A stretch of DNA of 64,000 nt, taken from IMG/VR virus record IMGVR_UViG_3300035703_000003; one strand, given 5' to 3'. The notes under the pieces are model-generated. The model searched no databases. It was not told the origin of the DNA and worked only from the letters and a program-made list of their open reading frames with translations. Numbering within the stretch: position 1 is the first letter of the stretch; each line of letters begins with the position of its first letter. This stretch comes from a virus (taxonomy: Duplodnaviria; Heunggongvirae; Uroviricota; Caudoviricetes). Shown one piece after another: positions 15,517 to 58,362 of the stretch. Position numbers and translations under genes: made by a program.

Positions 15517-15801
15517 TTATTTTTTATTTTCTAGGTCTTTAATGCGAGCTTCTAAATCATCTATTTTTGCAACAATCTTAGGATACTTTTTCTTCCATGC
15601 ATCCTCTGGTTGTTCAAGCCAAGTCAAGCCCCAACGTGCAACTAGGTAATCTACTATGCGATCAAATTGTGCATATGCCCATAAACCTATTCTTGTTGTC
15701 CCTAGATATGCTACAACCATTGCACTAATAATACCACCGATGATTGCAGTGTAGATCCACAACCTGTCGCTAGCCATACGTTCCATCATATCCCAAAGCA
15801 T
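15517..15801 (-). CDS. Membrane protein
   Basis: N-terminal TM helix and C-terminal coiled coil. Confidence 0.7.
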   Translation of the reverse strand: MLWDMMERMASDRLWIYTAIIGGIISAMVVAYLGTTRIGLWAYAQFDRIVDYLVARWGLTWLEQPEDAWKKKYPKIVAKIDDLEARIKDLENKK

Positions 15802-15804
15802 AAT

Positions 15805-16095
15805 TTATCTCACTTTATTAAAACGTTCGACTGTTTGTCTAACAGTTTGTTGTTCATTTGCAATTTTTCTAAGATCACGGCCTTGCTCTATTACTAGAGC
15901 ATTTAGTCGACGTAGTTGCTCTTCCAATCCACGAACATATGCTTGTGTTGGTATAAGTTTTTCTTGCCCATGTTCGTCTAACATCTTAAACGAGTCTGCA
16001 CCTTGGCTTTTTAGACCACCAACAACTCTGTTTGGATTTTTTTCTTCGTCTATGGGTTTTTTCTTTTTAGCCCCATACATGTTATATATACTCAT
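15805..16095 (-). CDS. Hypothetical coiled-coil protein
   Basis: Coupled ORF. Confidence 0.7.
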   Translation of the reverse strand: MSIYNMYGAKKKKPIDEEKNPNRVVGGLKSQGADSFKMLDEHGQEKLIPTQAYVRGLEEQLRRLNALVIEQGRDLRKIANEQQTVRQTVERFNKVR

Positions 16096-16247
16096 CCGTG
16101 TTCAAACCTTGATAATGATTTTGGTATTGGTATTACATTTTTCGACTTTTCTAAGTTTTCCATGTATTGTTTCCAATACGCTGTTCTTTCATTGGTAGAA
16201 GCACGAGTTTCCTCGTGCTTCTTTAATATTTCAACATAATGTTTCAT
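16092..16247 (-). CDS. Small hypothetical protein (51 aa)
   Basis: Not in the track. MKHYVEILKKHEE..., ATGA overlap with the next gene. Confidence 0.6.
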   Translation of the reverse strand: MKHYVEILKKHEETRASTNERTAYWKQYMENLEKSKNVIPIPKSLSRFEHG

Positions 16248-16276
16248 ATCAATATTCAATTATTTAATTCCCAGTT

Positions 16277-16543
16277 TCATTTGTCACTCGCTCCAAAGAA
16301 GAAGTTAATAATTGTTGACACTGCGGTACCTAATAAAAATCCTAAAATAATATTAGCAAAATTTACACCGTCTGGTGGTAGTGGAAAGAAAGTAACGCAA
16401 AAGAAATATATTACACTTACTATTCCCCAAAACCAAGCGAACCAATATGTAAAATGTGATGCTAATTTATCACCACGTCTTACTAGTTCTTCGTGTGCAT
16501 CTCGCAAACTGTTGTCTGTTGTGTCCATATTATCGTCTGACAT
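16277..16543 (-). CDS. Putative holin (2 TM)
   Basis: TAATG overlap with the endolysin stop; two TM helices; FFFGAS end. Confidence 0.65.
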   Translation of the reverse strand: MSDDNMDTTDNSLRDAHEELVRRGDKLASHFTYWFAWFWGIVSVIYFFCVTFFPLPPDGVNFANIILGFLLGTAVSTIINFFFGASDK

Positions 16544-17415
16544 TATTTGATACCCATTGCTGCTAGTGTTTTTGGTCCTGCTACGCCGTCTGCTGTAAGA
16601 CCTTTGCTTGCTTGCCATTTTTTAAGTGCTGCTTCTGTGCCTGGACCAAAGTCACCATCGGCACCTACACCTAATACTGCCTGCATTTTCTTAACTAAGT
16701 CGCCTTTGCTGCCTTTCTTAAGTGTTGCTGTTGCTGCACTTTCACTTGCAGATTCTGCTACTGGCTTAAGTGTTACTTTACCACCGAACACTTCCATTGC
16801 TTTTTTATAACGTGATTGACGATCTGCTAACCCGATGTCACCGCCGTTGATGATTTTAGTCATCTTAACAACATCGCCTGTATCAGCAACATCATTCAGT
16901 TTCTTTGCGTTCCAGAACCAGCAAGCTGATTCAATTGCGCCTTTTTCTGTTGCAACATATTCTGCAGCTTGTTCTGCGGTCATATTAACACTCTTACCAA
17001 AGTTAGTGTAGTTCTCACGACCAGTAAGTTGTTTTAGACCACGACCACGGAATCTCCATCCGTCACCCTCTTTTACGTTACCCATCTTTGATGTGCGGAA
17101 TTCGTCCATGTAAACATAGTTTGCAATCTTTTCTGGATTCTTTGCATACTCGGCAGCATTACGCTTTCCTGCGCCAAAGTAACGTGGAAAAATCTTTAGT
17201 AGAGTTTCTTCTCTATAGTTCAAGTTTTCTTCTAGCGTCATAAAGTTTCCGCTTTCATGAGCGCATTGTGCGATAAAGCCAGCAACTCTTGCTTCTGTTA
17301 CGATATCATATTTCGGAAGAATGTCTGCAAGTGCATCGTACCACTCTTCGACTTTTTTATTTCCTGGTATTAATGCTGCTAAATGCTCTTTAGTAAAATT
17401 AAATTTAAATGCCAT
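16543..17415 (-). CDS. GH19 endolysin with C-terminal PG-binding domain
   Basis: AQCAHES, FRGRGLKQLTG, INGG and DGDFGPGT...DGVAGPKT motifs. Confidence 0.92.
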   Translation of the reverse strand: MAFKFNFTKEHLAALIPGNKKVEEWYDALADILPKYDIVTEARVAGFIAQCAHESGNFMTLEENLNYREETLLKIFPRYFGAGKRNAAEYAKNPEKIANYVYMDEFRTSKMGNVKEGDGWRFRGRGLKQLTGRENYTNFGKSVNMTAEQAAEYVATEKGAIESACWFWNAKKLNDVADTGDVVKMTKIINGGDIGLADRQSRYKKAMEVFGGKVTLKPVAESASESAATATLKKGSKGDLVKKMQAVLGVGADGDFGPGTEAALKKWQASKGLTADGVAGPKTLAAMGIK

Positions 17416-26062: not shown

Positions 26063-27253
26063 TTAATTTAACGGCAATTCGGGATTCGGTGTTGTGAAGT
26101 TCTTTTTACGCATTACTGTTTTAGCAACTAAGTCTAGCACTTGACTGTGTGAATCCCAATTTAACACAAAAGGAACGTTAATATCAGAACGCATGTCCTT
26201 GATAACAGCTTGTGCATCAGGACCCATTTGTGCAATCTTTTTACCATAATTAATATACGTGTCTTTGAATAAAATTGCAAGTTCTTTTATTGTGATTTGT
26301 TTCATGTTTCTTTCATCGTTAACACGGTCAAGGAAGTGACGTGTAAATTCTACGTCAATGCCTAACTTTCTAAACAGTTGGTCTAGATACTTTTCTAGTG
26401 TGTCTAACTGAACTTGTGTAATTTGCGGATTGTCTTCTTCATTTATGCCGTATTTGCTTACATATAGTTTTTCTAATTCACGTGGACTTAATCCAGCTGC
26501 GAAACTGTTTGCGATACGGAATGCATAATCACCTAACGAATGTCTTTCGCCCTTGCTTTTTACAAGTCTATGCATTGCTTCTAGTGCTGCATTGATTAGT
26601 TTTTCTTTTGCTTTTACGTTATATTCTTCTCTGTTCATTTCGCTTACATCTCTCACTGTTCTGATGCTACCATCATGGTTTACGAAATATGCTGAAAATT
26701 TCACATTAGGATATTCTTGTTGTAGTTTGTTAAACACTTTCAAGTTAGTCATACTATCGTCATACATTCTAACACGACCGTATTTTCCCGTATCCAAATA
26801 ACGTCTTACAAAAACAGCTTTTTTCTCTGCAGGTATTGCATTACTTCTAATATTACCCGCTCTATGCACATGTATTAAGTCTATATTAATACCATGTTGT
26901 CTAAATGTATCTAGGAAAAGATCTTTGTCATCGAAATCTTCTCTTGCAGTTAACATAATAACTTTACTATCGCCTGCGTTCTGCAATATAGCATTTAGTT
27001 TTGCTATCATTGGTTTCATAGGCTCGCTTTCTTTATTAAACTTCTCTGCATTTCTGAATTCGCCAAAGTCAAACTCTTCGCCGGGCTGCAATTCATAATT
27101 GTTGAATTGTTGATTGTCTAATGTTTTTACTACATTACCATCCTTTACTACTTTTATCTTAGCAGTAGTATGGAATAATGTATCATCAATATCAAATATG
27201 GTTAATCCTAAGTTAGAATCACCATAAGCCTCGAAAAGTTCTTTTAATCTCAT
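26063..27253 (-). CDS. Tagged (MRLKELFE) HAD phosphatase fused to further modules
   Basis: IFDIDDTLF, LTAR, K and YDD HAD motifs; C-terminal FTRHFLDRVNDERN module. Confidence 0.8.
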   Translation of the reverse strand: MRLKELFEAYGDSNLGLTIFDIDDTLFHTTAKIKVVKDGNVVKTLDNQQFNNYELQPGEEFDFGEFRNAEKFNKESEPMKPMIAKLNAILQNAGDSKVIMLTAREDFDDKDLFLDTFRQHGINIDLIHVHRAGNIRSNAIPAEKKAVFVRRYLDTGKYGRVRMYDDSMTNLKVFNKLQQEYPNVKFSAYFVNHDGSIRTVRDVSEMNREEYNVKAKEKLINAALEAMHRLVKSKGERHSLGDYAFRIANSFAAGLSPRELEKLYVSKYGINEEDNPQITQVQLDTLEKYLDQLFRKLGIDVEFTRHFLDRVNDERNMKQITIKELAILFKDTYINYGKKIAQMGPDAQAVIKDMRSDINVPFVLNWDSHSQVLDLVAKTVMRKKNFTTPNPELPLN

Positions 27254-27266
27254 TTATCTAAATCCT

Positions 27267-28166
27267 TTAACGGCGTGTTGTGTTTGATGGCGGTGTCAAC
27301 GGTCTAGATGTGCCGCCAGGTCTTGCGGCTTGACCTGGACCTGCTACTGTTCCGCTTGGATTGAATCTCGGAGTTCCGGGTAATGGATTTGGATTTATTG
27401 TTCCCCCAGGTCTTGCGGCTTGACCTGGACCTGCTACTGTTCCGCTTGGATTGAATCTCGGAGTTCCGGGTAATGGATTTGGATTTATTGTTCCCCCAGG
27501 TCTTGCGGCTTGACCTGGACCTGCTACTGTTCCGCTTGGATTGAATCGTGTAGGTGGTACATTACTGCTAGCTGGTGGTCTTGCTGCGTCTAAGCCATCT
27601 TGATAACCACGTCTACGTTGTAATTCTGTGTTGCCGTCTCCTCGCCCGCCTGTTGCTGGACTAGCTGCTGGCATACTACCCTGGGCGCCAACTGTTGGTC
27701 TTGCTCCGCCTTGCGCTCTGTTTAACGCAGACATAGTTTGATCACCGGCAATTCCGTCTACTTGTAAACCAAAATCTGTTTGAAATTGTTTAACCGCGGC
27801 GGCAGTTCTTGGACCAAATTTTCCATCTGCTCCGGTGTCTCCAAGATCATAACCTTTGTCTATCAACATTTGTTGAAGGCCGCTTACATCAGAACCAGAC
27901 GAGCCACGTCTTAGATTTGAAGTAGTTGTCCCAGGAGCTCGTACACCTGTGGGTGCTCCACTAGTCGATTGATCAGGTCTAGTTGGTTGTCCCCGAGTTA
28001 TAGGCCCGCTAACTTCTTGGCCTGGTCTAGCTGGTAATCCTCTGAATACAGGCCCGCCAGGTCTTGCACTTTGTCCTGGTCCAGCCACTGTTCCGTCGGG
28101 ATTAAAATTCGGAGTTCCCCTGCCGGCAGGTAATGCTGGTCTTTCAAATAAATCTTTCAATCTCAT
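27267..28166 (-). CDS. Tagged (MRLKDLFE) peptidoglycan-binding domain protein with 30-aa repeats
   Basis: LRRGSSG...DGKFGPRT...VDGIAG PG-binding domain. Confidence 0.85.
   Translation of the reverse strand: MRLKDLFERPALPAGRGTPNFNPDGTVAGPGQSARPGGPVFRGLPARPGQEVSGPITRGQPTRPDQSTSGAPTGVRAPGTTTSNLRRGSSGSDVSGLQQMLIDKGYDLGDTGADGKFGPRTAAAVKQFQTDFGLQVDGIAGDQTMSALNRAQGGARPTVGAQGSMPAASPATGGRGDGNTELQRRRGYQDGLDAARPPASSNVPPTRFNPSGTVAGPGQAARPGGTINPNPLPGTPRFNPSGTVAGPGQAARPGGTINPNPLPGTPRFNPSGTVAGPGQAARPGGTSRPLTPPSNTTRR
27316..27548. repeat. Near-perfect 90-bp coding tandem repeat (about 2.6 copies)
   Basis: Units start at 27316, 27406 and 27496 and encode PRFNPSGTVAGPGQAARPGGTINPNPLPGT. Confidence 0.9.
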
Positions 28167-28402
28167 TTTGTTTTTTTCTCCCGGACCAGATCGTCCTTGT
28201 ATTCTTCTATGTAGTATTCTAGTGATTTATCACCACTACATATTTCAAAGTTTTCATTATTTATTGTTTTGCCTCTTATAAGATTTTTAGTTTTTTTGTC
28301 AATACTCTTAACATGTATTACCATGTCCTTATCCTGATGCTTATAATAAATTATATGCTGCGGATTAAAGTATCTCCAAATCTTTTTAAAAAACAATTTC
28401 AT
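28163..28402 (-). CDS. Hypothetical protein
   Basis: ATGA overlaps on both sides. Confidence 0.65.
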   Translation of the reverse strand: MKLFFKKIWRYFNPQHIIYYKHQDKDMVIHVKSIDKKTKNLIRGKTINNENFEICSGDKSLEYYIEEYKDDLVREKKTK

Positions 28403-29811
28403 TTCTCACGACCTGCTTTCATATTAGCAAGCCAGTGTGCCATACGCTGCTTTTCGCCTGAACTATTTTTAGCTGTTTTTCGCAAATCACTAACACTGGC
28501 TTTGGTATTTACACCCATACGCTTTGCCAGACCTTTGCGCCCTGGATTTTTACCATCTGCAAAGTTTTCATTTGTTTTTTCTACAGGGAAATATGCTTTA
28601 ATAGTTTTACCCATACGTTGCGCTGCGGCTGCACGATGGTTGCCATCAATTACACTGTACTTACCGTCACTAAACTGTGGTCCTACAATAATTGGTGCGC
28701 TTAGGTCAACACGATGACTGTAGTCGATATCTACAATACGATCAAATGGATCATCATAGTCGAAGAATTCTTCCTCACTTGGGAACATGTCTGGGGTAAA
28801 GTTTCCAAGTTGCCAATCATGAGCTAAGATGAACCGATCCATGTCTTTGTTCATACCAGCATCGTGATGCATACCTCTGAAGATTTTCAGCATTTCTTTG
28901 CCAGATTCTTCAGCTAATCCTTCTCTAGCCGCCGCTGCTTTTTCATCACTAGTATCGCCGGTAACCTTGTATGTTTTACCGTTTACACTAAATTCTTTTT
29001 TACCTGCTTTGATAGCATTCATACGTGCATCAGTAAATGGGTTTGATTCGTTAATATTGTCTGATAATAGATTAACAATTTTAGGCAATAGAGACTGATT
29101 CCTTGTAGCTTCTGGCAAGTCGCTATCTTTCATTGGTCTAATGCCTTTTATTTTTACATGCTCATTCTTTTCAAAACGTTTAATAAACTTCTCAACGGGC
29201 AATGGGCCGTCATAGTCAATTAATGTGTTTCCAAGTTTAACTGCAGCGTGATCTGCGTTGCCACGATCATTAATAAGAACCACTATATCTCCACCGTGTA
29301 TTTTTTGTAATGCTTGTGCTACTAATACACATCCACCATCAAACGGACCACAATCTTCGGGTTCTAAAATGTCATAAATGTTTTCTTTTGCTTCATTAGT
29401 AAGATCATGTGCAACCTTAAGTGCTGCTGGACCTTGTGGATGTCTTGGATTGATACTAACAACATCGCCGTTCATAAGATCACTGACGCTGGCACTCTTG
29501 CCTATTTTGTCTAACAGTTGATGTAACTTATCCTCAGGATCATAACCGTTTGTCTCGTATCCTAGTTTACCACGCACTTCAGTTCGCTTGCCTGTTTGTT
29601 TGTTTAAAATATGTAGGACTAGCATACCTGCACGGTTGTCACGCTCCAGTTGTAACATGTAACTATTGCCACTGCTTTCTTTAAGATAAGGTAAACTGAA
29701 CCACAGCTTAAACCAATCGTCTGTTCCTGGCTTTACTTTCTTTTCACGCTCGATGTCACGCAAACGCTTGCTTGTATGACTAATATTTTCTGATATTTCG
29801 TTTATTTTCAT
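28399..29811 (-). CDS. Tagged (MKINEISE) multi-module protein including a ParB-like domain
   Basis: PIIV...VIDGNHRAAA ParB motif; GGC...HA...IDYDG possible Cys-His-Asp module. Confidence 0.8.
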   Translation of the reverse strand: MKINEISENISHTSKRLRDIEREKKVKPGTDDWFKLWFSLPYLKESSGNSYMLQLERDNRAGMLVLHILNKQTGKRTEVRGKLGYETNGYDPEDKLHQLLDKIGKSASVSDLMNGDVVSINPRHPQGPAALKVAHDLTNEAKENIYDILEPEDCGPFDGGCVLVAQALQKIHGGDIVVLINDRGNADHAAVKLGNTLIDYDGPLPVEKFIKRFEKNEHVKIKGIRPMKDSDLPEATRNQSLLPKIVNLLSDNINESNPFTDARMNAIKAGKKEFSVNGKTYKVTGDTSDEKAAAAREGLAEESGKEMLKIFRGMHHDAGMNKDMDRFILAHDWQLGNFTPDMFPSEEEFFDYDDPFDRIVDIDYSHRVDLSAPIIVGPQFSDGKYSVIDGNHRAAAAQRMGKTIKAYFPVEKTNENFADGKNPGRKGLAKRMGVNTKASVSDLRKTAKNSSGEKQRMAHWLANMKAGREK

Positions 29812-30173
29812 TTCGCCAGACCTAAGTTAAACAATGTATTTGTTGTGCTAGTATTTAACAGTTTTGGCTTGCCGTCGCCTCCGAAAAACTTTTTAGCTTG
29901 ACGCTCAGTTTCACCGGGCTTAACATCGACTGTAGTATTAACACCAGGAACAATTTTACCATCTTCATCTACACGCTTGCCACGCTTACCGTAAGCACCG
30001 CCTGCATACCACTCACACCATCCGTTTGGGTCTATGTTACCTGCAACTGCACTACATTTGTTAGGATCTCTCCACATTGTGCAGTTAATACATTTTTGTC
30101 CGTTCTTAGGATCAGGCTGATAACCTGCTTCAGCCTTAGACCCTTTCCCTTCAAATAGCTCATGTATTCTCAT
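29808..30173 (-). CDS. Tagged (MRIHELFE) high-potential iron-sulfur protein (HiPIP)-like
   Basis: AGYQ...CINC-x8-C-x10-GWCEWY, the four-Cys HiPIP pattern. Confidence 0.8.
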   Translation of the reverse strand: MRIHELFEGKGSKAEAGYQPDPKNGQKCINCTMWRDPNKCSAVAGNIDPNGWCEWYAGGAYGKRGKRVDEDGKIVPGVNTTVDVKPGETERQAKKFFGGDGKPKLLNTSTTNTLFNLGLAK

Positions 30174-31366
30174 CTTGGTCCTACTCCCATTGCCGTTGGC
30201 GGTGTTCCAGTTGATGGTTTAGGTTTAGGAGGAGTGATAGGCTTTGGTGCAGACTTGGGGGGAGTTAATCCGGTCCCTGTTCTATCTTGTGCGCCCATCG
30301 GTGTTGGACTTCCTGACCCTGTAGTTAGTTTAGGTATATTAGTCGGAGTAGTTGGGGCCACTCTCGGTGTTGGACTAACAGGTCTAGTAGGTAAACTTAC
30401 GTTGTTAAAGATTTCTCGCATAGCACTTAATGTTTGCACGCCTGCTATACCATCAACTTGTAGACCGTAATCTTGTTGAAACTTTCTTACCGCTGCAGTT
30501 GTATTCCCGCCATAACGACCGTCGACTCCCTGATCGCCTACAGTATATCCTAATGTTGTAAGACCTTTTTGTAAAGTTTTAACACTGTCTAATGGAACAC
30601 CTTCTGCTCTGTAATCTCTTTTAAGATTTATTGCTCCACTAGGACCTGGCAACTTACTAACATCAATTTTAGGGATAACTTTAGGTGGTATAACGTTTAC
30701 TCTAGCAGGAATACTTGTAAATGGATTTGGAACGGCATTCGGGGGAGTTAACTTGGGACGTTCTAAGTTCGGTGCGGACATAGTAGACACTGTTGTTCTA
30801 AACGCAGATGGTGATGTATAATTTGGCCCAGCTGTAGTTAATGCTCTATCTAATGTATTATATCCTGCTGATAAGTTTGCATATCCATCTGCACTGTAAT
30901 TAGGATCAGTGCGACGCCATCTAATATAGTTGTCTCCTAATACTTCTGCTGCAGTGTTAGGGTCAATATCAGGATTTCCTAAAAATTCGGTTGCAGTTCT
31001 ACGATATGACGGCTCGTTTTCCATTTCATATCTAACAAACTTTGCTTGTGCATCTAATGTTTCTTGTCCGGGTATAAGATTTCCGCTATTATCTATCCGG
31101 CCTTGGTCGTTCATAAATCTCATAAATGAATCATGACGTGGTCCTTGCCAGCTAATCATACCTGCATTGCTAGCACGATTGTATGGATCTGTATGCGTTC
31201 CATACAAATATCTGTCTTGAAAACTATTTTCTCTATTAACCTCTGCAGTAAGAGCTCTTGCTTGAGCATCACTAAATCCTGCATTAGTAAATGCATTATA
31301 AACGCCCAATGCGTTTGCTTCACGACTAGTTAATTCTCCTGCTTCGAACAGTTCTTTTAATCTCAT
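30170..31366 (-). CDS. Tagged (MRLKELFE) phage tail lysozyme-like domain plus PG-binding domain
   Basis: GFSDAQARALTAEVNRENSF, GMISWQGPR and LDAQAKFV; DGRYGGNT...VDGIAG. Confidence 0.8.
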   Translation of the reverse strand: MRLKELFEAGELTSREANALGVYNAFTNAGFSDAQARALTAEVNRENSFQDRYLYGTHTDPYNRASNAGMISWQGPRHDSFMRFMNDQGRIDNSGNLIPGQETLDAQAKFVRYEMENEPSYRRTATEFLGNPDIDPNTAAEVLGDNYIRWRRTDPNYSADGYANLSAGYNTLDRALTTAGPNYTSPSAFRTTVSTMSAPNLERPKLTPPNAVPNPFTSIPARVNVIPPKVIPKIDVSKLPGPSGAINLKRDYRAEGVPLDSVKTLQKGLTTLGYTVGDQGVDGRYGGNTTAAVRKFQQDYGLQVDGIAGVQTLSAMREIFNNVSLPTRPVSPTPRVAPTTPTNIPKLTTGSGSPTPMGAQDRTGTGLTPPKSAPKPITPPKPKPSTGTPPTAMGVGPR

Positions 31367-31370
31367 TTTA

Positions 31371-32006
31371 TTATCCTGCTAGTATAGTTAATAGTTGTAG
31401 TATTGCTTCTGGATGCATCGATTGTCTTGGTGTAGCTAACAGTTGAATTTCTGTTCGCATTTTGTCTGCGTCTTCTGGACTTACTCCACGGCTTTCTAGT
31501 TTGTCGATAAGATTGTTAATTTTATTTAAATCAATCGGGAGTGGTGGTTGCTCTTGTTCTCCTGCTTCTGTTGCAAAGGATCTTAATTTTCTTGCTATTT
31601 TAGGGTCTCTTAGTAATCTTAACGCTTTTACTCCTAGTTGGCCGACACGGCCATCGCTTATTCCCAATACATTTGCTATTTGTGTATTTGTCATAGGATT
31701 ATTAAATGGTTCAATTCCAAACTGTGCTTTAAGTATTAGTGCGTATCGGCGTGGTAATTGATCTATTGCTGCATGTATTTCTTTTGTTAGTTCTTCACGA
31801 TTTACTGTATCGAATTGGTCAGCATCATAGCTACCGGTGGGGAAATCAACTTGTGTGCCTTTAACAGTAATGTCTCTTTTACTAATACTTTTACTGTTAG
31901 GCACTCTGCCCCCGATAGTAGTGTTGCGGTATGTTTCGCTGTCTGGATTGTATAACGCCATTACCTGCTTATCACTAAATGTTTCTGATAAATCTCTTAG
32001 TTTCAT
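31371..32006 (-). CDS. Tagged (MKLRDLSE) sigma70 region-4-like HTH protein
   Basis: LPRRYALILKAQFGI...RVGQLGVKALRLLRDPKIARKLRSF aligns by eye to the RpoD C-terminus. Confidence 0.8.
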   Translation of the reverse strand: MKLRDLSETFSDKQVMALYNPDSETYRNTTIGGRVPNSKSISKRDITVKGTQVDFPTGSYDADQFDTVNREELTKEIHAAIDQLPRRYALILKAQFGIEPFNNPMTNTQIANVLGISDGRVGQLGVKALRLLRDPKIARKLRSFATEAGEQEQPPLPIDLNKINNLIDKLESRGVSPEDADKMRTEIQLLATPRQSMHPEAILQLLTILAG

Positions 32007-32560
32007 TTTTTATATTGTCCCAAATATTCAGCTACTAAGTCAAAGAAAGGTTTACCATCAATCATAGTATCGGCAGATACACCTGCAGCATCTGCAAATG
32101 CTTGTTTGTCTCCCATTGCAACCGCTGTTCTTAATGCAGTTGCACTACTTAATCTTGGTGTTGGCACTTGTGTTATTTTAGGGAAGTTATAACCACCATG
32201 TGCGCCCTCTTTGCCATTATATTGCTGTAATGTTTTTAAAACCCAATCTTCGTCGGTATAGATCCTCAATTCAACATCGCCGTGTTTTTGATAAATTTCG
32301 TTTGCAAGTGTAAGCCAGCTTTGACTAGGTGCAATATGCTTTGCTACTTCTGGCCAAATAGTTTCCATTGCTTTTATTTTTACATCATATGGTAACGGAT
32401 CTTTTGGACCTTGTGTAGATTTGTTTGTGCCAACATACCAAGCAGGATTTTCACTAGCCATTTGCCATGCAGCTTTATGACCTTTATGAGGAGGATTGAA
32501 TCGTCCAAATATTAATCCTACACTATTAACGTTTGCTTCAAATAATTCGAATAATCTCAT
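32003..32560 (-). CDS. Tagged (MRLFELFE) HxGH nucleotidyltransferase
   Basis: FGRFNPPHKGH, KDPL and SSATALR motifs. Confidence 0.85.
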   Translation of the reverse strand: MRLFELFEANVNSVGLIFGRFNPPHKGHKAAWQMASENPAWYVGTNKSTQGPKDPLPYDVKIKAMETIWPEVAKHIAPSQSWLTLANEIYQKHGDVELRIYTDEDWVLKTLQQYNGKEGAHGGYNFPKITQVPTPRLSSATALRTAVAMGDKQAFADAAGVSADTMIDGKPFFDLVAEYLGQYKK

Positions 32561-32587
32561 TTTACTGTTTCCTTGTCAACCTTGTCA

Positions 32588-32944
32588 TCACCAAGCCCTG
32601 CAACTCCAGTATCTTGCTTTAGTCTTAGGCCCAGGATTATCGCAATTGTGTCTTGCACGGAAACTACGGCGACGTGCTGGGTTTGATTTTTTAATACGCA
32701 TGTTTGGATCACCAAAGTTTACTTTTTTAACATTTCCTGTGCCAGGATCTTTTACATAAACTTTGAATTTTTTTACATCGCCTTGCATAGGCTTGTTGAG
32801 CTGCACATTGCGCCCTTGATATTCGGCTTCGAAGAGACCATCTTCGTCATATGCTAAGTAGCCAAATTCTTCGTGAAAATCTTGATTATCATCTAACGTG
32901 ATTTCGTTTTCACTATTCTCGGTTATAAGGTCTGAAAATTTCAT
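32588..32944 (-). CDS. Tagged (MKFSDLITE) basic protein
   Basis: Acidic leader, then LFE|AEYQG and a basic domain RRSFRARHNC...RYWSCRAW. Confidence 0.8.
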   Translation of the reverse strand: MKFSDLITENSENEITLDDNQDFHEEFGYLAYDEDGLFEAEYQGRNVQLNKPMQGDVKKFKVYVKDPGTGNVKKVNFGDPNMRIKKSNPARRRSFRARHNCDNPGPKTKARYWSCRAW

Positions 32945-32948
32945 AAGA

Positions 32949-32992
32949 ACACCCTCGGTAATACTTTAATATAGTATTTAGCCCGAGGGTGT
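32949..32992 (-). promoter_or_regulatory. Late promoter (TAAATA) within an RBS-sequestering hairpin
   Basis: 10-bp inverted repeat ACACCCTCGG/CCGAGGGTGT flanks TAAATA; the 3' arm contains the GAGG RBS. Confidence 0.7.
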
Positions 32993-33003: not shown

Positions 33004-33921
33004 TTATGCGTTAGTAATTTTAGCAACAGTTGAAGTTGCAGTGCCTAGTGTCCACGGAACGCTTCTACCAGTTGTGAATACTGTACCTGTTCCCTGAGTC
33101 AATGTTGCTCTACGAGCAGTTAACTTAGTTACATAATATGTATCACCTGCAGCGTCTGTAGCAACAATACTGCATTCACCTGCCGCATTCGCTAATGAAG
33201 ATTGCAGTTGGACAATGCCAGTGCGAGTACCGTCTGTTACTTTATAACGGTTTGTGGAAACTTGACGCAATATGTCAACTTGTACAGCCGAACCACCGGT
33301 TAAGAAACCAATCATTGTGATTGAGTTTTCTTGGTTTCCTGTAGTTCCTATAATACCACTGTCAGTACCAAGTACGGCTGTAGCAGCACCAGTGCCACCG
33401 CTAAATGTGATAGCTGCATCTGCTGCATCAGTATAACCAGAACCTTGTTCAGTAATAGTAATGTCTTTAACACGATATGTGATAGTTAGTGTAGCACCAG
33501 TGCCGCCTGCTGGAGCAACTGTTGTTGTTTTAGCACCAGTAGTTGTTGCAGTGAATGTACCACGATTTAGTGGTGTTACTGTTGCAACTGCAGTAGTCGA
33601 CAATGTTGCTACTGTGAATGTAGCTGTTTGACCACCGTAAGTAACAGTTAGCACATCATTCACAGAGTAGCCTGACCCGCCTGCTGTTACAACTGCACTT
33701 AGTACTTCCATAACAGTAGTACCAGTAGCAGTAACACCGCCAACTGCTGCCTTGTCAGGTGCAGAAAACGTTACTGTTGGCTGGTCGGCACCTAGATATG
33801 AACCTGCAGTAGTAATAGTTACACTTGATACAAAACCACCGCCGATGCCGTTGTCTGCTGCTGTGCTTGCGGAACCGATATTGCGGTTACCGAAGAATTT
33901 CTTATTTAATGGACGCCCCAT
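33004..33921 (-). CDS. Virion structural protein (Thr/Gly/Ala-rich)
   Basis: GSGY repeats, strong AAGGAG RBS, late promoter. Confidence 0.75.
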   Translation of the reverse strand: MGRPLNKKFFGNRNIGSASTAADNGIGGGFVSSVTITTAGSYLGADQPTVTFSAPDKAAVGGVTATGTTVMEVLSAVVTAGGSGYSVNDVLTVTYGGQTATFTVATLSTTAVATVTPLNRGTFTATTTGAKTTTVAPAGGTGATLTITYRVKDITITEQGSGYTDAADAAITFSGGTGAATAVLGTDSGIIGTTGNQENSITMIGFLTGGSAVQVDILRQVSTNRYKVTDGTRTGIVQLQSSLANAAGECSIVATDAAGDTYYVTKLTARRATLTQGTGTVFTTGRSVPWTLGTATSTVAKITNA

Positions 33922-34002: not shown

Positions 34003-34010
34003 TATTTATA
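34003..34010 (-). promoter_or_regulatory. T4-type late promoter TATAAATA
   Basis: Exact match overlapping the upstream stop codon. Confidence 0.65.
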
Positions 34011-37519: not shown

Positions 37520-38074
37520 TCAAAATTTACTTGTGTTTTTACTATAGTAATCTACTAAGTCTTTATCGCTACGTTGCAAGTATCGTTTGTAACTTTCTGG
37601 TAAGTCATCCCATGGACGCATACATGGATGTGTTTTATTGGCGATGTCTAAATCTAAACCAAAGCGCCAACCTTTTTCCATTTGTTCAAGTATCCATGCA
37701 TTGTGTGCTTTTCTTGAAACTGCATCTAACAGTATATTTCTTGCTTCGTCATCCATTGAAATATCATATTCAAATGGAATTCCAAAGTTTGCATTTGCTT
37801 GATACACATTACTTGTTTCAATTTCAAAGTCATGTGTTGTAACACGCATATATCCTTCAACGATTTTCTCAGCTTCGTCTGCACTAAGATGTCTTACTAG
37901 AGGAATAATATATAGATATTTGTTTAGATGAATTCCTAGCATTAAGCTAGTAGTATCATCGTCTCCTGCTAATATGCCATCTGGTGCTAACAAGTTAACA
38001 GTGTAATACCACTTTTTAACTTCGTCTGCTTTTAACGGGCTGTCTGATCGTTGAAGGATATAAAAGTCTTGCAT
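37520..38074 (-). CDS. RyR-domain protein
   Basis: HNAW...GWRFG...KTHPCMRPWDDLPE. Confidence 0.75.
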   Translation of the reverse strand: MQDFYILQRSDSPLKADEVKKWYYTVNLLAPDGILAGDDDTTSLMLGIHLNKYLYIIPLVRHLSADEAEKIVEGYMRVTTHDFEIETSNVYQANANFGIPFEYDISMDDEARNILLDAVSRKAHNAWILEQMEKGWRFGLDLDIANKTHPCMRPWDDLPESYKRYLQRSDKDLVDYYSKNTSKF

Positions 38075-58005: not shown

Positions 58006-58362
58006 TTATCCCCAATCGAACAAATCTTTACCTGTAGCTACTGTTTCTTTCACAGTATTTTTTCGCATCTTAGATGCGGGATAATTTTTAGTCTTCGACA
58101 ATGATCTAACAGCACCTGCAATGATGCTCGGATATTCGCCTAAGAAACTGCCTGCTTCCAACATATCTTTTGAAAGCAAGTGTTTGTGATAATGTGCTAT
58201 GTTATCGAAATTTGCTAGTAACTGCTTAGACATACTGTCATACATAGCGTCACTAAGAATAGGATCATCCAACACATAGTATGCATATGATGCCATCAAA
58301 TACCACGGCACTAACATATTCTTATTGTCTGCTATGATCTTTGCAGCATAATCGTCATACAT
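58006..58362 (-). CDS. Stand-alone NAD-dependent DNA ligase domain Ia-like protein
   Basis: YAYYVLDDPILSDAMYD. Confidence 0.7.
   Translation of the reverse strand: MYDDYAAKIIADNKNMLVPWYLMASYAYYVLDDPILSDAMYDSMSKQLLANFDNIAHYHKHLLSKDMLEAGSFLGEYPSIIAGAVRSLSKTKNYPASKMRKNTVKETVATGKDLFDWG

What the first reader, a model, noticed from the sequence alone, without database searches (positions are those of the whole stretch)
31371..32006. Isolated sigma70 region-4 mimic carrying the cargo tag
Seen: the central domain ends KALRLLRDPKIARKLRSF, close to the RpoD C-terminus pattern KALRKL+HPSRS+KLRSF, but sigma regions 1-3 are absent. Known: region 4 binds the -35 element, the beta flap, activators and anti-sigma factors. 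Inference: an injected decoy or transcription modulator that acts before phage gene expression, or a binder of the phage early promoters.
Basis: partly seen in the sequence, partly recalled or inferred. Interest (0 to 1): 0.72.

Follow-up and report, generated by a model that had tools for sequence, protein, structure and literature searches.

The report
Cargo-tagged sigma-70 domain-4 mimic
An uncultured giant T4-related phage encodes a 211-residue protein that keeps only the tail end (domain 4) of the bacterial housekeeping sigma factor. It carries the phage's head-loading tag, so it is probably injected with the DNA to sit on the host RNA polymerase where sigma's own domain 4 normally sits, but no experiment shows this yet.

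Summary
ORF 31371-32006 (minus strand) is a real 211-aa gene. Residues 54-146 are homologous to the C-terminus of primary sigma factors (RpoD/SigA): end of region 3.2, then 4.1, 4.2 and the final helix. Regions 1-3 are absent here and in all 36 family representatives tested.

Three things are new. A 45-residue unstructured module precedes domain 4, is the most conserved part of the protein, and occurs only with this domain. The unit is bracketed by hydrophobic-x-Glu sites, both as the N-terminal tag and as internal joints in relatives' polyproteins. The window's clade has replaced the -35-reading residues (R584, E585, R588 equivalents) but keeps the flap-binding parts.

Best reading (about 0.4): late-made, head-packaged cargo that docks on the RNA polymerase beta-flap. 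It would act like T4 gp33 and be delivered like T4 Alt. Binding to the phage's TTGACA early promoters is disfavoured for this clade.

Packaging, cleavage and polymerase binding are all inferred. No cultured phage has the family.

The scan has noted cargo-tagged full sigma or sigma-2-like modules in other phage genomes. The look-ups listed a domain-4-only case only on this same stretch, read in other windows.

The parts
31371..32006 (-). Whole gene, 211 aa plus stop. Its start overlaps the stop of the upstream tagged nucleotidyltransferase gene (ATGA), and the next gene starts 4 nt after its stop.
31983..32006 (-). N-terminal tag MKLRDLSE (residues 1-8), ending in L-S-E. This fits the T4 prohead-protease motif L/I-x-E.
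   Evidence: PMC9026906 gives the motif. The internal joint ...VMGE|TFTDKQ in relative P0028 aligns with ...DLSE|TFSDKQ here.
31848..31982 (-). N-module (residues 9-53), with core YNPDSETYR ... PNSKSISK.DITVKG. Predicted coil, the most conserved part of the protein, not detectably related to sigma.
   Evidence: conservation; coil, pLDDT 55-61; hhalign E 0.49; of 43 hits checked, 35 carry domain 4 downstream; 2 more are short proteins that end soon after the motif; 6 lack both the motif and domain 4.
31812..31847 (-). Linker (residues 54-65) beginning DFP. It is homologous to the C-terminal part of sigma region 3.2 (the GDFIED... segment).
   Evidence: the local profile-profile alignment becomes confident here; tblastn to rpoD starts at this point.
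31569..31811 (-). Sigma-70 domain 4 (residues 66-146): helices H1 66-82, H2 86-96, H3 107-114, H4 118-132, H5 135-145, ending KLRSF like RpoD itself.
31611..31655 (-). Recognition helix H4 (residues 118-132) with the -35-contact positions replaced: D118 for R584, G119 for E585, G122 for R588. R120, Q123, K127 and R130 are kept.
   Evidence: Numbering comes from the E. coli chains.
31542..31568 (-). Acidic linker EAGEQEQPP (residues 147-155). Glu147 aligns with the cleavage-type Glu that follows domain 4 in relatives, but here the third residue before it is Ala, so cleavage is uncertain.
31374..31541 (-). C-module (residues 156-211), three predicted helices, ending ILQLLTILAG. Found only at the C-end of genes of this family.
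   Evidence: window plus 17 loci, nowhere else in their six frames; pLDDT about 70.
26063..32944 (-). Run of nine close-packed co-directional genes, eight of them tagged: unknown 118 aa, nucleotidyltransferase, this gene, lysozyme/PG-binding, HiPIP-like, ParB-like polyprotein, an untagged 79-aa gene, PG-binding, HAD/kinase-like.
34003..34010 (-). TATAAATA, a T4-late-promoter-like motif, 82 nt upstream of gene 33004-33921. That gene heads the co-directional run containing this gene.
   Evidence: ATAAATA is reported as the late motif of phages CBB and GAP32 in PMC5259590.

Best explanation
The gene makes a late protein whose 8-residue N-terminal tag directs it into the assembling head. There the head protease removes the tag after Glu8, as for T4 internal proteins and Alt. 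The mature protein (residues 9-211, or 9-147 if the A-T-E site is also cut) is ejected with the DNA.

Its core is a copy of the last roughly 95 residues of the host-type housekeeping sigma factor. That is the part which in the holoenzyme runs out through the RNA exit channel and clamps the beta-flap tip helix. I propose it takes that seat on host RNA polymerase. Helices H1, H2 and H5 would grip the flap tip. The retained region-3.2 linker and the highly conserved, unstructured N-module would lie in or near the RNA exit channel.

In this clade the protein no longer reads the -35 hexamer. It would therefore act as a DNA-blind domain-4 substitute, functionally like T4 gp33. It would keep host sigma factors from using the flap on whatever core enzyme it captures, most plausibly free core, blunting re-programming of the polymerase in the first minutes.

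Shown: homology, domain limits, loss of DNA-contact residues, tag and joint pattern, gene context.
Inferred: late expression, packaging, cleavage, flap binding, the effect on transcription.
For: (1) True RpoD-type domain 4:
- Pfam 30.7 bits, PDB profile hits at 1e-20, fold match.
- Clade B member P0017 is 50-57% identical to real rpoD over about 75-100 residues.

(2) Homology starts at the end of region 3.2 and runs to RpoD's own C-terminus. The retained piece is therefore the core-binding C-terminal arm of sigma.

(3) Elements that bind the flap are conserved across the whole family:
- These are the H1/H2 region and H5 (PMC2988021; H5-flap tip hydrophobic contact in PMC3950348).
- The family keeps the (A/M)RFG motif, L73 (= L540), and KLRSF with L141 (= L607) and F144 (= F610).
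- The HTH has decayed only in this clade.

(4) The N-module is the most conserved part (17 of 27 invariant or nearly invariant columns). It is predicted unstructured. In 1.84 billion proteins it is found essentially only directly upstream of this domain. This is the behaviour of a segment that folds on a conserved partner.

(5) Cargo evidence:
- Ten tagged ORFs are clustered.
- A hydrophobic-x-Glu site ends 9-10 residues before the YNPD motif in 22 of 38 distinct contexts, against a 2.9% background.
- The unit appears as a cassette between such sites in polyproteins with PG-binding, nucleotidyltransferase, ParB and GNAT modules.
- The T4 tag and the L/I-x-E rule are documented (PMC9026906).
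- T4 Alt is a packaged RNA polymerase modifier (PMC2988021).
- A sigma factor was detected by mass spectrometry in phage Arash particles (PMC10585845).

(6) Late-type motif upstream and tight gene packing.
Against: - No particle, cleavage or binding data exist, and no cultured phage carries the family.
- The head protease gene could not be examined.
- The phage's own early promoters are TTGACA-17-TATATT without an extended -10. They need sigma-70 domain 4 on the flap, so an injected flap competitor could harm the phage's own early transcription.
- A domain supplied in trans must compete with sigma's own tethered domain 4.
- Most of the family (clade B) keeps a near-canonical recognition helix (consensus 13 of 15). 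A pure flap blocker would not need that.
- One bead of these polyproteins occurs in cultured T4-like phages in a protein without a tag that is not annotated as a virion protein (phiM12 gp159).
- Hydrophobic-x-Glu motifs also occur inside the folded domain in some members, so the motif alone does not prove a cut.
Confidence: 0.4

Rival explanations
1. Decoy for proteins that bind sigma-70 domain 4. The injected free domain soaks up a host (or resident-prophage) factor that normally grips domain 4, such as an Rsd/AlgQ-type anti-sigma factor, an activator or a defence sensor. Host sigma-70 then stays free to serve the phage's strong -35/-10 early promoters.
For: - The similarity is specifically to group-1 sigma: RpoD at 1e-20 against RpoS at about 3e-8. 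Domain-4 chains from solved complexes with Rsd, AsiA and ORF67 are among the best PDB matches (2p7v, 1tlh, 4g6d).
- Surface residues used by regulators (K593, R596, R599, P601 equivalents) are kept.
- It resolves the conflict with the -35-dependent early promoters.
- T4 IPI is a precedent for an injected stoichiometric inhibitor (PMC9026906).
Against: - It does not explain why the region-3.2 linker is retained.
- It does not explain why a 45-residue unstructured module is the most conserved part and strictly coupled to the domain.
- No candidate ligand is known in the unknown host.
- The clade of this window has changed much of the mimicked surface.
Confidence: 0.2
2. Trans-acting domain 4 of a split sigma. 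The protein docks on the flap and works with a sigma-2-type partner (host sigma-70 with its own domain 4 displaced, or a phage gp55-like factor). This forms a hybrid holoenzyme with changed promoter use or initiation behaviour. In clade B it would still read a -35 element; in this clade it would be DNA-blind, like gp33.
For: - T4 gp55 plus gp33 is regarded as a split sigma, and gp33 as a sigma-4 mimic (PMC2988020).
- The related jumbo phage CBB has a gp55-like gene but no detectable gp33 (PMC5259590).
- The clade B consensus keeps 13 of 15 recognition-helix residues.
- The N-module sits where the sigma finger would be, with a weak language-model resemblance to Sigma70_r3 fragments (score 0.85, a lead only).
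- Unchecked notes from this scan report gp55-like proteins with head-loading tags in other giant T4-like phages.
Against: - No sigma-2-like module was found among the tagged proteins scanned in this window.
- The family is rare (45 clusters at E up to 0.001 in 1.84 billion proteins) and absent from cultured relatives. It is therefore an accessory, not a core transcription factor.
- The C-terminus (…ILQLLTILAG) does not resemble the clamp-binding tail of this phage's DNA polymerase (…ESLFDFG), unlike gp33 and gp55 in T4.
Confidence: 0.15
3. It acts in the producing cell, not the next host. Made late, it competes with sigma-70 domain 4 for the flap and shuts off -35-dependent early and host promoters. 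This frees core polymerase for late transcription. The tag then reflects later disposal into heads or has another role.
For: - A late-type motif lies upstream.
- The early promoters depend on -35, so a DNA-blind flap binder would be an effective early-gene silencer.
- gp33 represses basal transcription and competes at the flap (PMC2988020).
Against: - The unit shares its tag and joint pattern with peptidoglycan hydrolases and other modules that only make sense as delivered cargo.
- It is rare and accessory.
- If it is also packaged, it would silence early promoters in the next cell.
Confidence: 0.12
4. Generic DNA-binding internal head protein. The basic HTH domain (pI about 10.9) binds packaged DNA non-specifically, to condense it or to ride into the cell with it, with no role at RNA polymerase.
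For: - The domain-4 segment is strongly basic.
- T4 internal proteins are basic and abundant (PMC9026906).
- ParB-like DNA-binding modules occur in the same polyproteins.
Against: - Non-DNA surfaces that serve flap binding (region 4.1, the H5 KLRSF tail) and the region-3.2 linker are conserved. The HTH is the part that decays.
- The whole protein is near neutral (pI 6.8).
Confidence: 0.08

Closest known systems
Domain 4 (regions 4.1-4.2 plus helix H5) of primary sigma factors RpoD/SigA, e.g. E. coli sigma-70 residues about 516-613
   Same: Clear sequence homology (profile E 1e-20; clade B member P0017 is 50-57% identical to real rpoD) and the same fold. It includes the end of region 3.2 and the KLRSF C-terminal helix that contacts the flap tip.
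   Different: - Regions 1.1-3.1 and the sigma finger are absent, so it cannot bind the beta-prime coiled coil or open a -10 element.
- A novel 45-residue module, a head-loading-type tag and a 56-residue C-module are added.
- In this clade the -35-reading residues are replaced.
Phage T4 gp33 (late-transcription co-activator, described as a sigma-4 mimic that binds the beta-flap tip)
   Same: - Small phage protein proposed to occupy sigma domain 4's seat on the flap.
- DNA-sequence-blind (in this clade).
- Belongs to a T4-related phage whose late promoters lack a -35 element (PMC2988020).
   Different: - gp33 has no sequence homology to sigma, whereas this protein is a real sigma fragment.
- gp33 carries a C-terminal clamp-binding tail like the DNA polymerase's. 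This protein does not.
- gp33 is not packaged.
- This family is rare and accessory.
Phage T4 Alt and internal proteins IPI-III (capsid-targeting sequence cargo)
   Same: - Short N-terminal propeptide ending in L/I-x-E.
- A set of otherwise unrelated late proteins.
- Alt is injected and modifies host RNA polymerase at time zero (PMC9026906, PMC2988021).
   Different: - Alt is an enzyme (ADP-ribosyltransferase) acting on the alpha subunit. This protein is a non-enzymatic structural mimic.
- Its tag is 8 residues, against 10-19 for the T4 internal proteins.
- Nothing here has been shown in particles.
Other phage proteins aimed at the sigma-4/flap junction: T4 AsiA, Thermus phage P23-45 gp39, Xanthomonas phage Xp10 P7, S. 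aureus phage G1 ORF67
   Same: They target the same small interface to switch off -35-dependent initiation (PMC3950348, PMC3985653).
   Different: None is homologous to sigma. All are made after infection, none is thought to be virion cargo, and they bind sigma-4 or the flap rather than imitating sigma-4.
Virion-associated sigma factor Gp10 of Salmonella phage Arash
   Same: A sigma-family protein detected by mass spectrometry in phage particles, together with a cell-wall hydrolase (PMC10585845).
   Different: - Arash Gp10 is annotated as a sigma factor (RpoS) and travels with the phage's own polymerase subunits. This protein is domain 4 only, and its phage uses sigma-70-type early promoters.
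- There is no detectable similarity.

Membership tests
Pfam PF04545 Sigma70_r4 (domain) | Score above the curated gathering cut-off (24.1 bits) | tested here: met
   30.7 bits, E 2.2e-7, residues 80-133. All 36 family representatives match, best E 2e-19.
Sigma-70 family sigma factor (functional sigma) | Region 2 (core binding, -10 recognition and melting) | tested here: not met
   No Sigma70_r2 or r3 for the window protein at E up to 0.1, and neither appears among the families listed for the 36 representatives. The N-module alone shows no similarity to the RpoD C-terminal 230 residues (hhalign E 0.49).
Sigma-70 family sigma factor (functional sigma) | Region 4.2 residues that read the -35 hexamer (E. 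coli R584, E585, R588, Q589; established knowledge) | tested here: not met
   The window has D, G, G, Q at these positions. H4 is 7 of 15 identical to RpoD and H3 is 0 of 8. The clade B consensus keeps E585, R588 and Q589 equivalents.
Group 1 (RpoD/SigA) origin of the domain | Best matches are primary sigma factors, including the C-terminal KLRSF helix | tested here: met
   RpoD/SigA at E 1e-20 to 1e-13 against RpoS at about 3e-8. The alignment runs to the last residues of RpoD.
T4-type capsid-targeting-sequence cargo (IPI-III, Alt) | Short N-terminal propeptide ending in L/I-x-E | tested here: met
   MKLRDLSE with L-S-E at residues 6-8. The same kind of site serves as an internal joint in relatives. 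The motif comes from PMC9026906. The tag is 8 residues, against 10-19 in T4.
T4-type capsid-targeting-sequence cargo (IPI-III, Alt) | Phage has a gp21-type prohead protease | not testable with these tools
   No whole genome is held. PF03420 was not found in the one searchable relative fragment, which is about 10% complete. The DNA polymerase is T4-family, closest to Phosso, CBB and related jumbo phages.
T4-type capsid-targeting-sequence cargo (IPI-III, Alt) | Protein present in purified particles with the propeptide removed | not testable with these tools
   No cultured phage carries the family.
T4-type capsid-targeting-sequence cargo (IPI-III, Alt) | Late expression | tested here: inconclusive
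   TATAAATA at 34003-34010 heads the co-directional run. ATAAATA occurs 13 times on the coding strand and 0 times on the other, all between 17.4 and 46.4 kb, several within about 90 nt upstream of start codons. The total count is near chance. The motif is reported as late for CBB and GAP32.
T4 gp33-type late co-activator | C-terminal sliding-clamp-binding tail resembling that of the phage's DNA polymerase | tested here: not met
   The polymerase ends ...ESLFDFG and this protein ends ...ILQLLTILAG. The feature is taken from PMC2988020.
T4 gp33-type late co-activator | Binds the beta-flap tip | not testable with these tools
   Only single-chain folding is available. The inference rests on conservation of the H1/H2/H5 elements.

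The most novel reading that the evidence does not exclude
The family is an injected, trans-acting replacement for the C-terminal arm of sigma. The mature protein threads its conserved N-module into the polymerase where the sigma finger normally lies, and seats a sigma-derived domain 4 on the flap. It then combines with a sigma-2-type partner (host sigma-70, or a phage gp55-like protein that may itself be packaged). This builds a hybrid holoenzyme at the moment of DNA entry: a virion-delivered split sigma. Its -35 reading is kept in most of the family and lost in this clade.
Probability: 0.12. Interest if true: 0.85.

Novelty: new variant of a known kind. Interest (0 to 1): 0.62.

Why it matters
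Phages are known to retarget host RNA polymerase in two ways. One uses small proteins that grip the sigma-4/flap junction (AsiA, gp33, gp39, P7). The other uses packaged enzymes such as Alt.

A piece of sigma itself, cut down to the arm that holds the flap, extended by a new invariant peptide and apparently shipped inside the head, would combine the two ideas. In the papers I searched I found no report of a phage-encoded domain-4-only sigma fragment.

It offers a natural, minimal probe of the sigma-4/flap/RNA-exit-channel interface. The family also provides a built-in comparison. Clade B should still read -35 DNA and the window's clade should not.

It further adds a transcription-directed member to the growing picture of giant T4-like phages carrying large kits of tagged, protease-released cargo proteins.

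Tried and rejected
- **Whole-genome access.** The window's own 313-kb contig is not in the scanned collections. I therefore could not look for the head protease, gp55, gp33 or a tagged sigma-2 elsewhere in the genome.
- **Head protease.** A PF03420 search of the only searchable relative record found nothing. That record is a 36-kb fragment, and the 14 control genomes also gave no hit, so the result is uninformative.
- **Cultured relatives.** tblastn of the protein against 50,697 phage records gave no hit. A clade B member hits only rpoD genes in those records.
- **N-module as diverged sigma region 3.** Local profile-profile comparison is not significant (E 0.49). Forced global alignment places it opposite the sigma finger, but that is not evidence. 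The Atlas hit to a Sigma70_r3 fragment cluster scores 0.85, below the level that means anything.
- **gp33-like clamp tail.** Rejected.
- **T4 late promoter.** Exact TATAAATA is not enriched (3 found against 6.2 expected). The shorter ATAAATA is strand- and region-specific, but its total count is near chance.
- **Sigma-2-like partner.** None was found among the tagged neighbours by Pfam or PHROGs.
- **C-module.** No informative structural or feature match.
- **Literature.** Searches for a stand-alone or packaged sigma region 4 found nothing.
- **Recent capture.** Gene GC is about 0.39, the same as the window, so there is no sign of recent acquisition.
Full report
**Observation**

The finding's coordinates are exactly one ORF on the minus strand, 31371-32006, 211 aa, beginning MKLRDLSE. 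Its start codon overlaps the stop of the upstream gene (ATGA). The next gene starts 4 nt after its stop. It is therefore embedded in a tightly packed co-directional run.

The quoted string KALRLLRDPKIARKLRSF is residues 127-144. Four results show that the domain is real:
- Pfam Sigma70_r4 matches residues 80-133 at 30.7 bits, above the curated cut-off of 24.1. PHROGs gives "RNA polymerase sigma factor" at 2e-8.
- A profile of 18 relatives hits domain-4 chains of RpoD/SigA in the PDB at about 1e-20. RpoS scores only about 3e-8, so the domain is of the housekeeping (group 1) type.
- AlphaFold2 with 61 relatives gives five helices with pLDDT 83-90 for residues 67-145.
- Foldseek's best matches are SigA/RpoD chains, with rmsd 1.0 A over 75 columns to a sigmaA region 4-flap chimera.

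**The phage**

Nearly all large ORFs in the window are on the minus strand. The DNA polymerase is a T4-family enzyme. It is closest (43-48% identity) to the jumbo phages Sinorhizobium Phosso, Pectobacterium CBB and Salmonella Munch, among others. The protein's own cluster lies on a 313-kb contig. No whole genome is held for the window.

**Anatomy of the protein**

The family alignment and a profile-profile comparison with 66 RpoD C-termini divide it into five parts.
- **Residues 1-8:** the tag.
- **Residues 9-53:** a module with the motif YNPDSETYR followed by PNSKSISK.DITVKG. It holds 17 of the 27 invariant or nearly invariant columns of the alignment, so it is more conserved than the sigma domain. 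It is nevertheless predicted as coil with pLDDT 55-61. On its own it has no significant similarity to RpoD (E 0.49).
- **Residues 54-146:** from DFP onward the protein is homologous to RpoD. It starts at the GDFIED segment at the end of region 3.2, continues through 4.1 and 4.2, and ends at the last helix. It finishes KLRSF, within a few residues of RpoD's own C-terminus. tblastn of a relative against real rpoD genes starts at the same point.
- **Residues 147-155:** an acidic linker.
- **Residues 156-211:** a three-helix module (pLDDT about 70). It occurs only at the C-end of genes of this family, in the window and in 17 related loci, and nowhere else in their six-frame translations.

**The family**
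- Near-length relatives number 27 clusters. Nine long forms of 604-1048 aa also exist.
- A profile of the N-module alone was searched against 1.84 billion representative proteins. It found 45 hits at E up to 0.001 and 12 at E up to 1e-10.
- I checked 43 of those hits. 35 have domain 4 downstream of the module, starting about 45-60 residues after the motif where the motif is recognisable. Two more are short proteins that end soon after the motif. The other six have neither the motif nor domain 4, and five of them match only as repeated short stretches.
- All 36 representatives scanned in Pfam carry Sigma70_r4. No Sigma70_r2 or r3 appears among the families listed.

The unit [N-module + end of 3.2 + domain 4] is therefore a fixed cassette, and the family is rare.

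**Tag and joints**

Ten ORFs between 20.8 and 33 kb start M[RK][LIFV]x[DE][LI]x(1-2)E. The pattern never occurs internally in any ORF of 50 aa or more in the window. The tagged proteins are unrelated to each other:
- a lysozyme with a peptidoglycan-binding domain;
- a second PG-binding protein;
- a HiPIP-like protein;
- a ParB-like polyprotein;
- a nucleotidyltransferase;
- a HAD/kinase-like protein.

In the long relatives the sigma cassette is internal and is bracketed by hydrophobic-x-Glu sites. Examples before it are ...VMGE|TFTDKQALSLYNPDS...VNE|AYPAQQ and ...IDE|AHPAQQ. Examples after it are ...KLRGFMDE|...LLGE| and ...SMIGE|. The P0028 joint aligns residue for residue with the end of the window's tag (DLSE|TFSDKQVMALYNPDS).

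Such a site ends 9-10 residues before the YNPD motif in 22 of 38 distinct contexts, against 2.9% of positions in the same proteins. It ends within 4-14 residues in 30 of 38, against 15%. The sequences are related, so the binomial p-values overstate independence. No such site separates the N-module from domain 4.

T4's prohead protease cuts after L/I-x-E, and T4 internal proteins carry 10-19-residue targeting propeptides that it removes (PMC9026906). The pattern therefore fits the reading [quoted passage not shown].

In the window protein the only clean site is L-S-E at residues 6-8. The Glu that follows domain 4 in relatives is present (E147), but the third residue before it is Ala. I cannot say whether the C-module is released.

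Two cautions apply. Hydrophobic-x-Glu also occurs inside the folded domain in some members. One bead of these polyproteins occurs in cultured T4-like phages in phiM12 gp159, a protein without a tag that is not annotated as a virion protein.

**Expression timing**
- Exact TATAAATA is not enriched.
- ATAAATA occurs 13 times on the coding strand and never on the other strand. All copies lie between 17.4 and 46.4 kb, and several lie within about 90 nt upstream of start codons.
- The same heptamer was reported as the late-gene motif of CBB and GAP32 (PMC5259590).
- A full TATAAATA at 34003-34010 precedes gene 33004-33921, which heads the run containing this gene.

Late expression is likely but inferred.

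**What the domain can still do**

I used E. coli numbering derived from the chains aligned. It agrees with L540/T544/V547 and F563 as quoted in PMC3950348 and PMC2988021.

The window protein has D, G and G at the positions of R584, E585 and R588. It also has Y for E555 and L for K597. It keeps R586, Q589, K593, R596, L598, R599, P601, L607, R608 and F610.

| Helix | Window protein vs RpoD consensus | Window-clade consensus | Clade B consensus |
|---|---|---|---|
| H3 | 0 of 8 | 0 of 8 | 3 of 8 |
| H4 | 7 of 15 | 8 of 15 | 13 of 15 |
| H2 | 4 of 11 | 5 of 11 | 7 of 11 |
| H5 | 6 of 12 | 6 of 12 | 7 of 12 |

R584, E585, R588 and Q589 are the -35-reading residues (established knowledge). H1, H2 and H5 are the parts that contact the flap (PMC2988021). 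H5 makes the hydrophobic contact with the flap-tip helix (PMC3950348).

Family-wide conservation therefore tracks the polymerase-binding half of domain 4, the 3.2 linker and the N-module. The DNA-reading half is optional and has decayed in this clade. It argues for docking at sigma domain 4's seat on the core enzyme.

**Mechanism and its problem**

The most economical model is a DNA-blind domain-4 substitute on the flap. This is what T4 gp33 is described as doing ("a sigma-4 mimic", PMC2988020). It would be delivered as T4 Alt is, inside the head (PMC2988021).

The unstructured, invariant N-module lies where sigma's finger and exit-channel linker would be. It is the natural candidate for extra contacts inside the polymerase.

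The difficulty is that this phage's early region has at least five TTGACA-17-TATATT promoters without an extended -10. These need sigma-70 domain 4 on the flap. One possible resolution is that the injected protein captures free core rather than pre-formed holoenzyme. It would then block sigma exchange without stopping the first rounds of early transcription. That is speculation.

The rivals remain open:
- a decoy for domain-4-binding proteins;
- the trans half of a split sigma;
- a late silencer acting in the producing cell;
- a generic DNA-binding head protein.

The gp33-type clamp tail was tested and is absent. The polymerase ends ESLFDFG and this protein ends ILQLLTILAG.

**Comparison with what is known**

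This is not a sigma factor, because it has no region 2. It does contain a bona fide Sigma70_r4 domain.

It resembles gp33 in proposed action but not in sequence or tail. It resembles Alt and the T4 internal proteins in proposed delivery. It targets the same interface as AsiA, gp39, P7 and ORF67, but by imitation rather than binding.

A sigma factor has been detected in particles of phage Arash, alongside that phage's own polymerase subunits (PMC10585845). My literature searches found no phage protein consisting of sigma domain 4 alone, and none described as packaged.

Earlier notes of this scan (unchecked AI notes) describe the same tag cluster and the polyprotein joints in this genome. They also describe cargo-tagged full sigma or gp55-like modules in other phage genomes. 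The look-ups listed no domain-4-only case on other DNA.

**Verdict**

This is a new variant of known kinds (flap/sigma-4-directed phage factors, and T4-type head cargo). It has a testable internal contrast between clades. Everything downstream of the sequence remains inference.

Noticed in passing
window 17454-46367, minus strand: ATAAATA occurs 13 times on the coding strand and 0 times on the other. All copies lie in the structural/cargo part of the window, and several sit within about 90 nt upstream of start codons. The same heptamer is reported as the late motif of the jumbo phages CBB and GAP32.
   Followed up: partly
window 32949-32992, minus strand: A 10-bp hairpin (ACACCCTCGG ... CCGAGGGTGT, 24-nt loop) lies between gene 33004-33921 and the first tagged gene. 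Its 3' arm contains the GAGG that would serve as the ribosome-binding site 7 nt before the ATG at 32944. This may be translational control of the cargo run.
   Followed up: no
window 58006-58362, minus strand: A 118-aa early-region protein ends ...KDLFDWG, resembling the clamp-binding tail of the phage DNA polymerase (...ESLFDFG). It is a candidate sliding-clamp partner. It matches phrog_19233 (unknown function) and shows weak similarity to DNA ligase N-terminal segments.
   Followed up: partly
window 32003-32560, minus strand; also P0030, P0032, P0036, L019, L022, L024-L026: A tagged nucleotidyltransferase with a GRFNPPHKGH motif lies next to the sigma cassette here. In several other lineages it is adjacent or fused in the same polyprotein. 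This recurrent pairing may mean a functional link.
   Followed up: partly
L027 2540-4348 (Sinorhizobium phage phiM12 gp159) compared with P0030 and P0032: The cultured phage phiM12 has the same long protein (nucleotidyltransferase-like start, basic repeat region, C-terminal FTKHFGERMSD... bead) without the sigma cassette and without a tag. In P0030 and P0032 the cassette is inserted between two hydrophobic-x-Glu sites just before the last bead.
   Followed up: partly
window 37520-38074, minus strand: A 184-aa protein in the structural region carries a RyR domain (Pfam PF02026, 43.7 bits). It is conserved next to the same neighbours in relatives (L001, L003, L012).
   Followed up: no
window 15517-17415, minus strand: Likely lysis genes separate from the tagged lysins: a GH19-like plus PG_binding_1 protein (16543-17415) and a small protein with a sub-threshold XhlA-like match (15517-15801). 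The tagged PG-binding proteins are therefore probably not the endolysin.
   Followed up: no
proteins P0016-P0035 (relatives); not in the window's sigma gene: A recurrent hydrophobic bead (…PPL.ELI.MAV……KTGKG..KLKK.A..AGVKL…GE) separates modules in many of the polyproteins, sometimes twice in one protein. Its role is unknown.
   Followed up: no
one search hit list: The bacterial RpoD proteins scoring highest against the family profile are from Betaproteobacteria (Polaromonas, Ottowia, Rhodoferax, Burkholderiales). Score differences are tiny and candidates were pre-selected by shared words, so this is only a weak hint about the host or donor.
   Followed up: no
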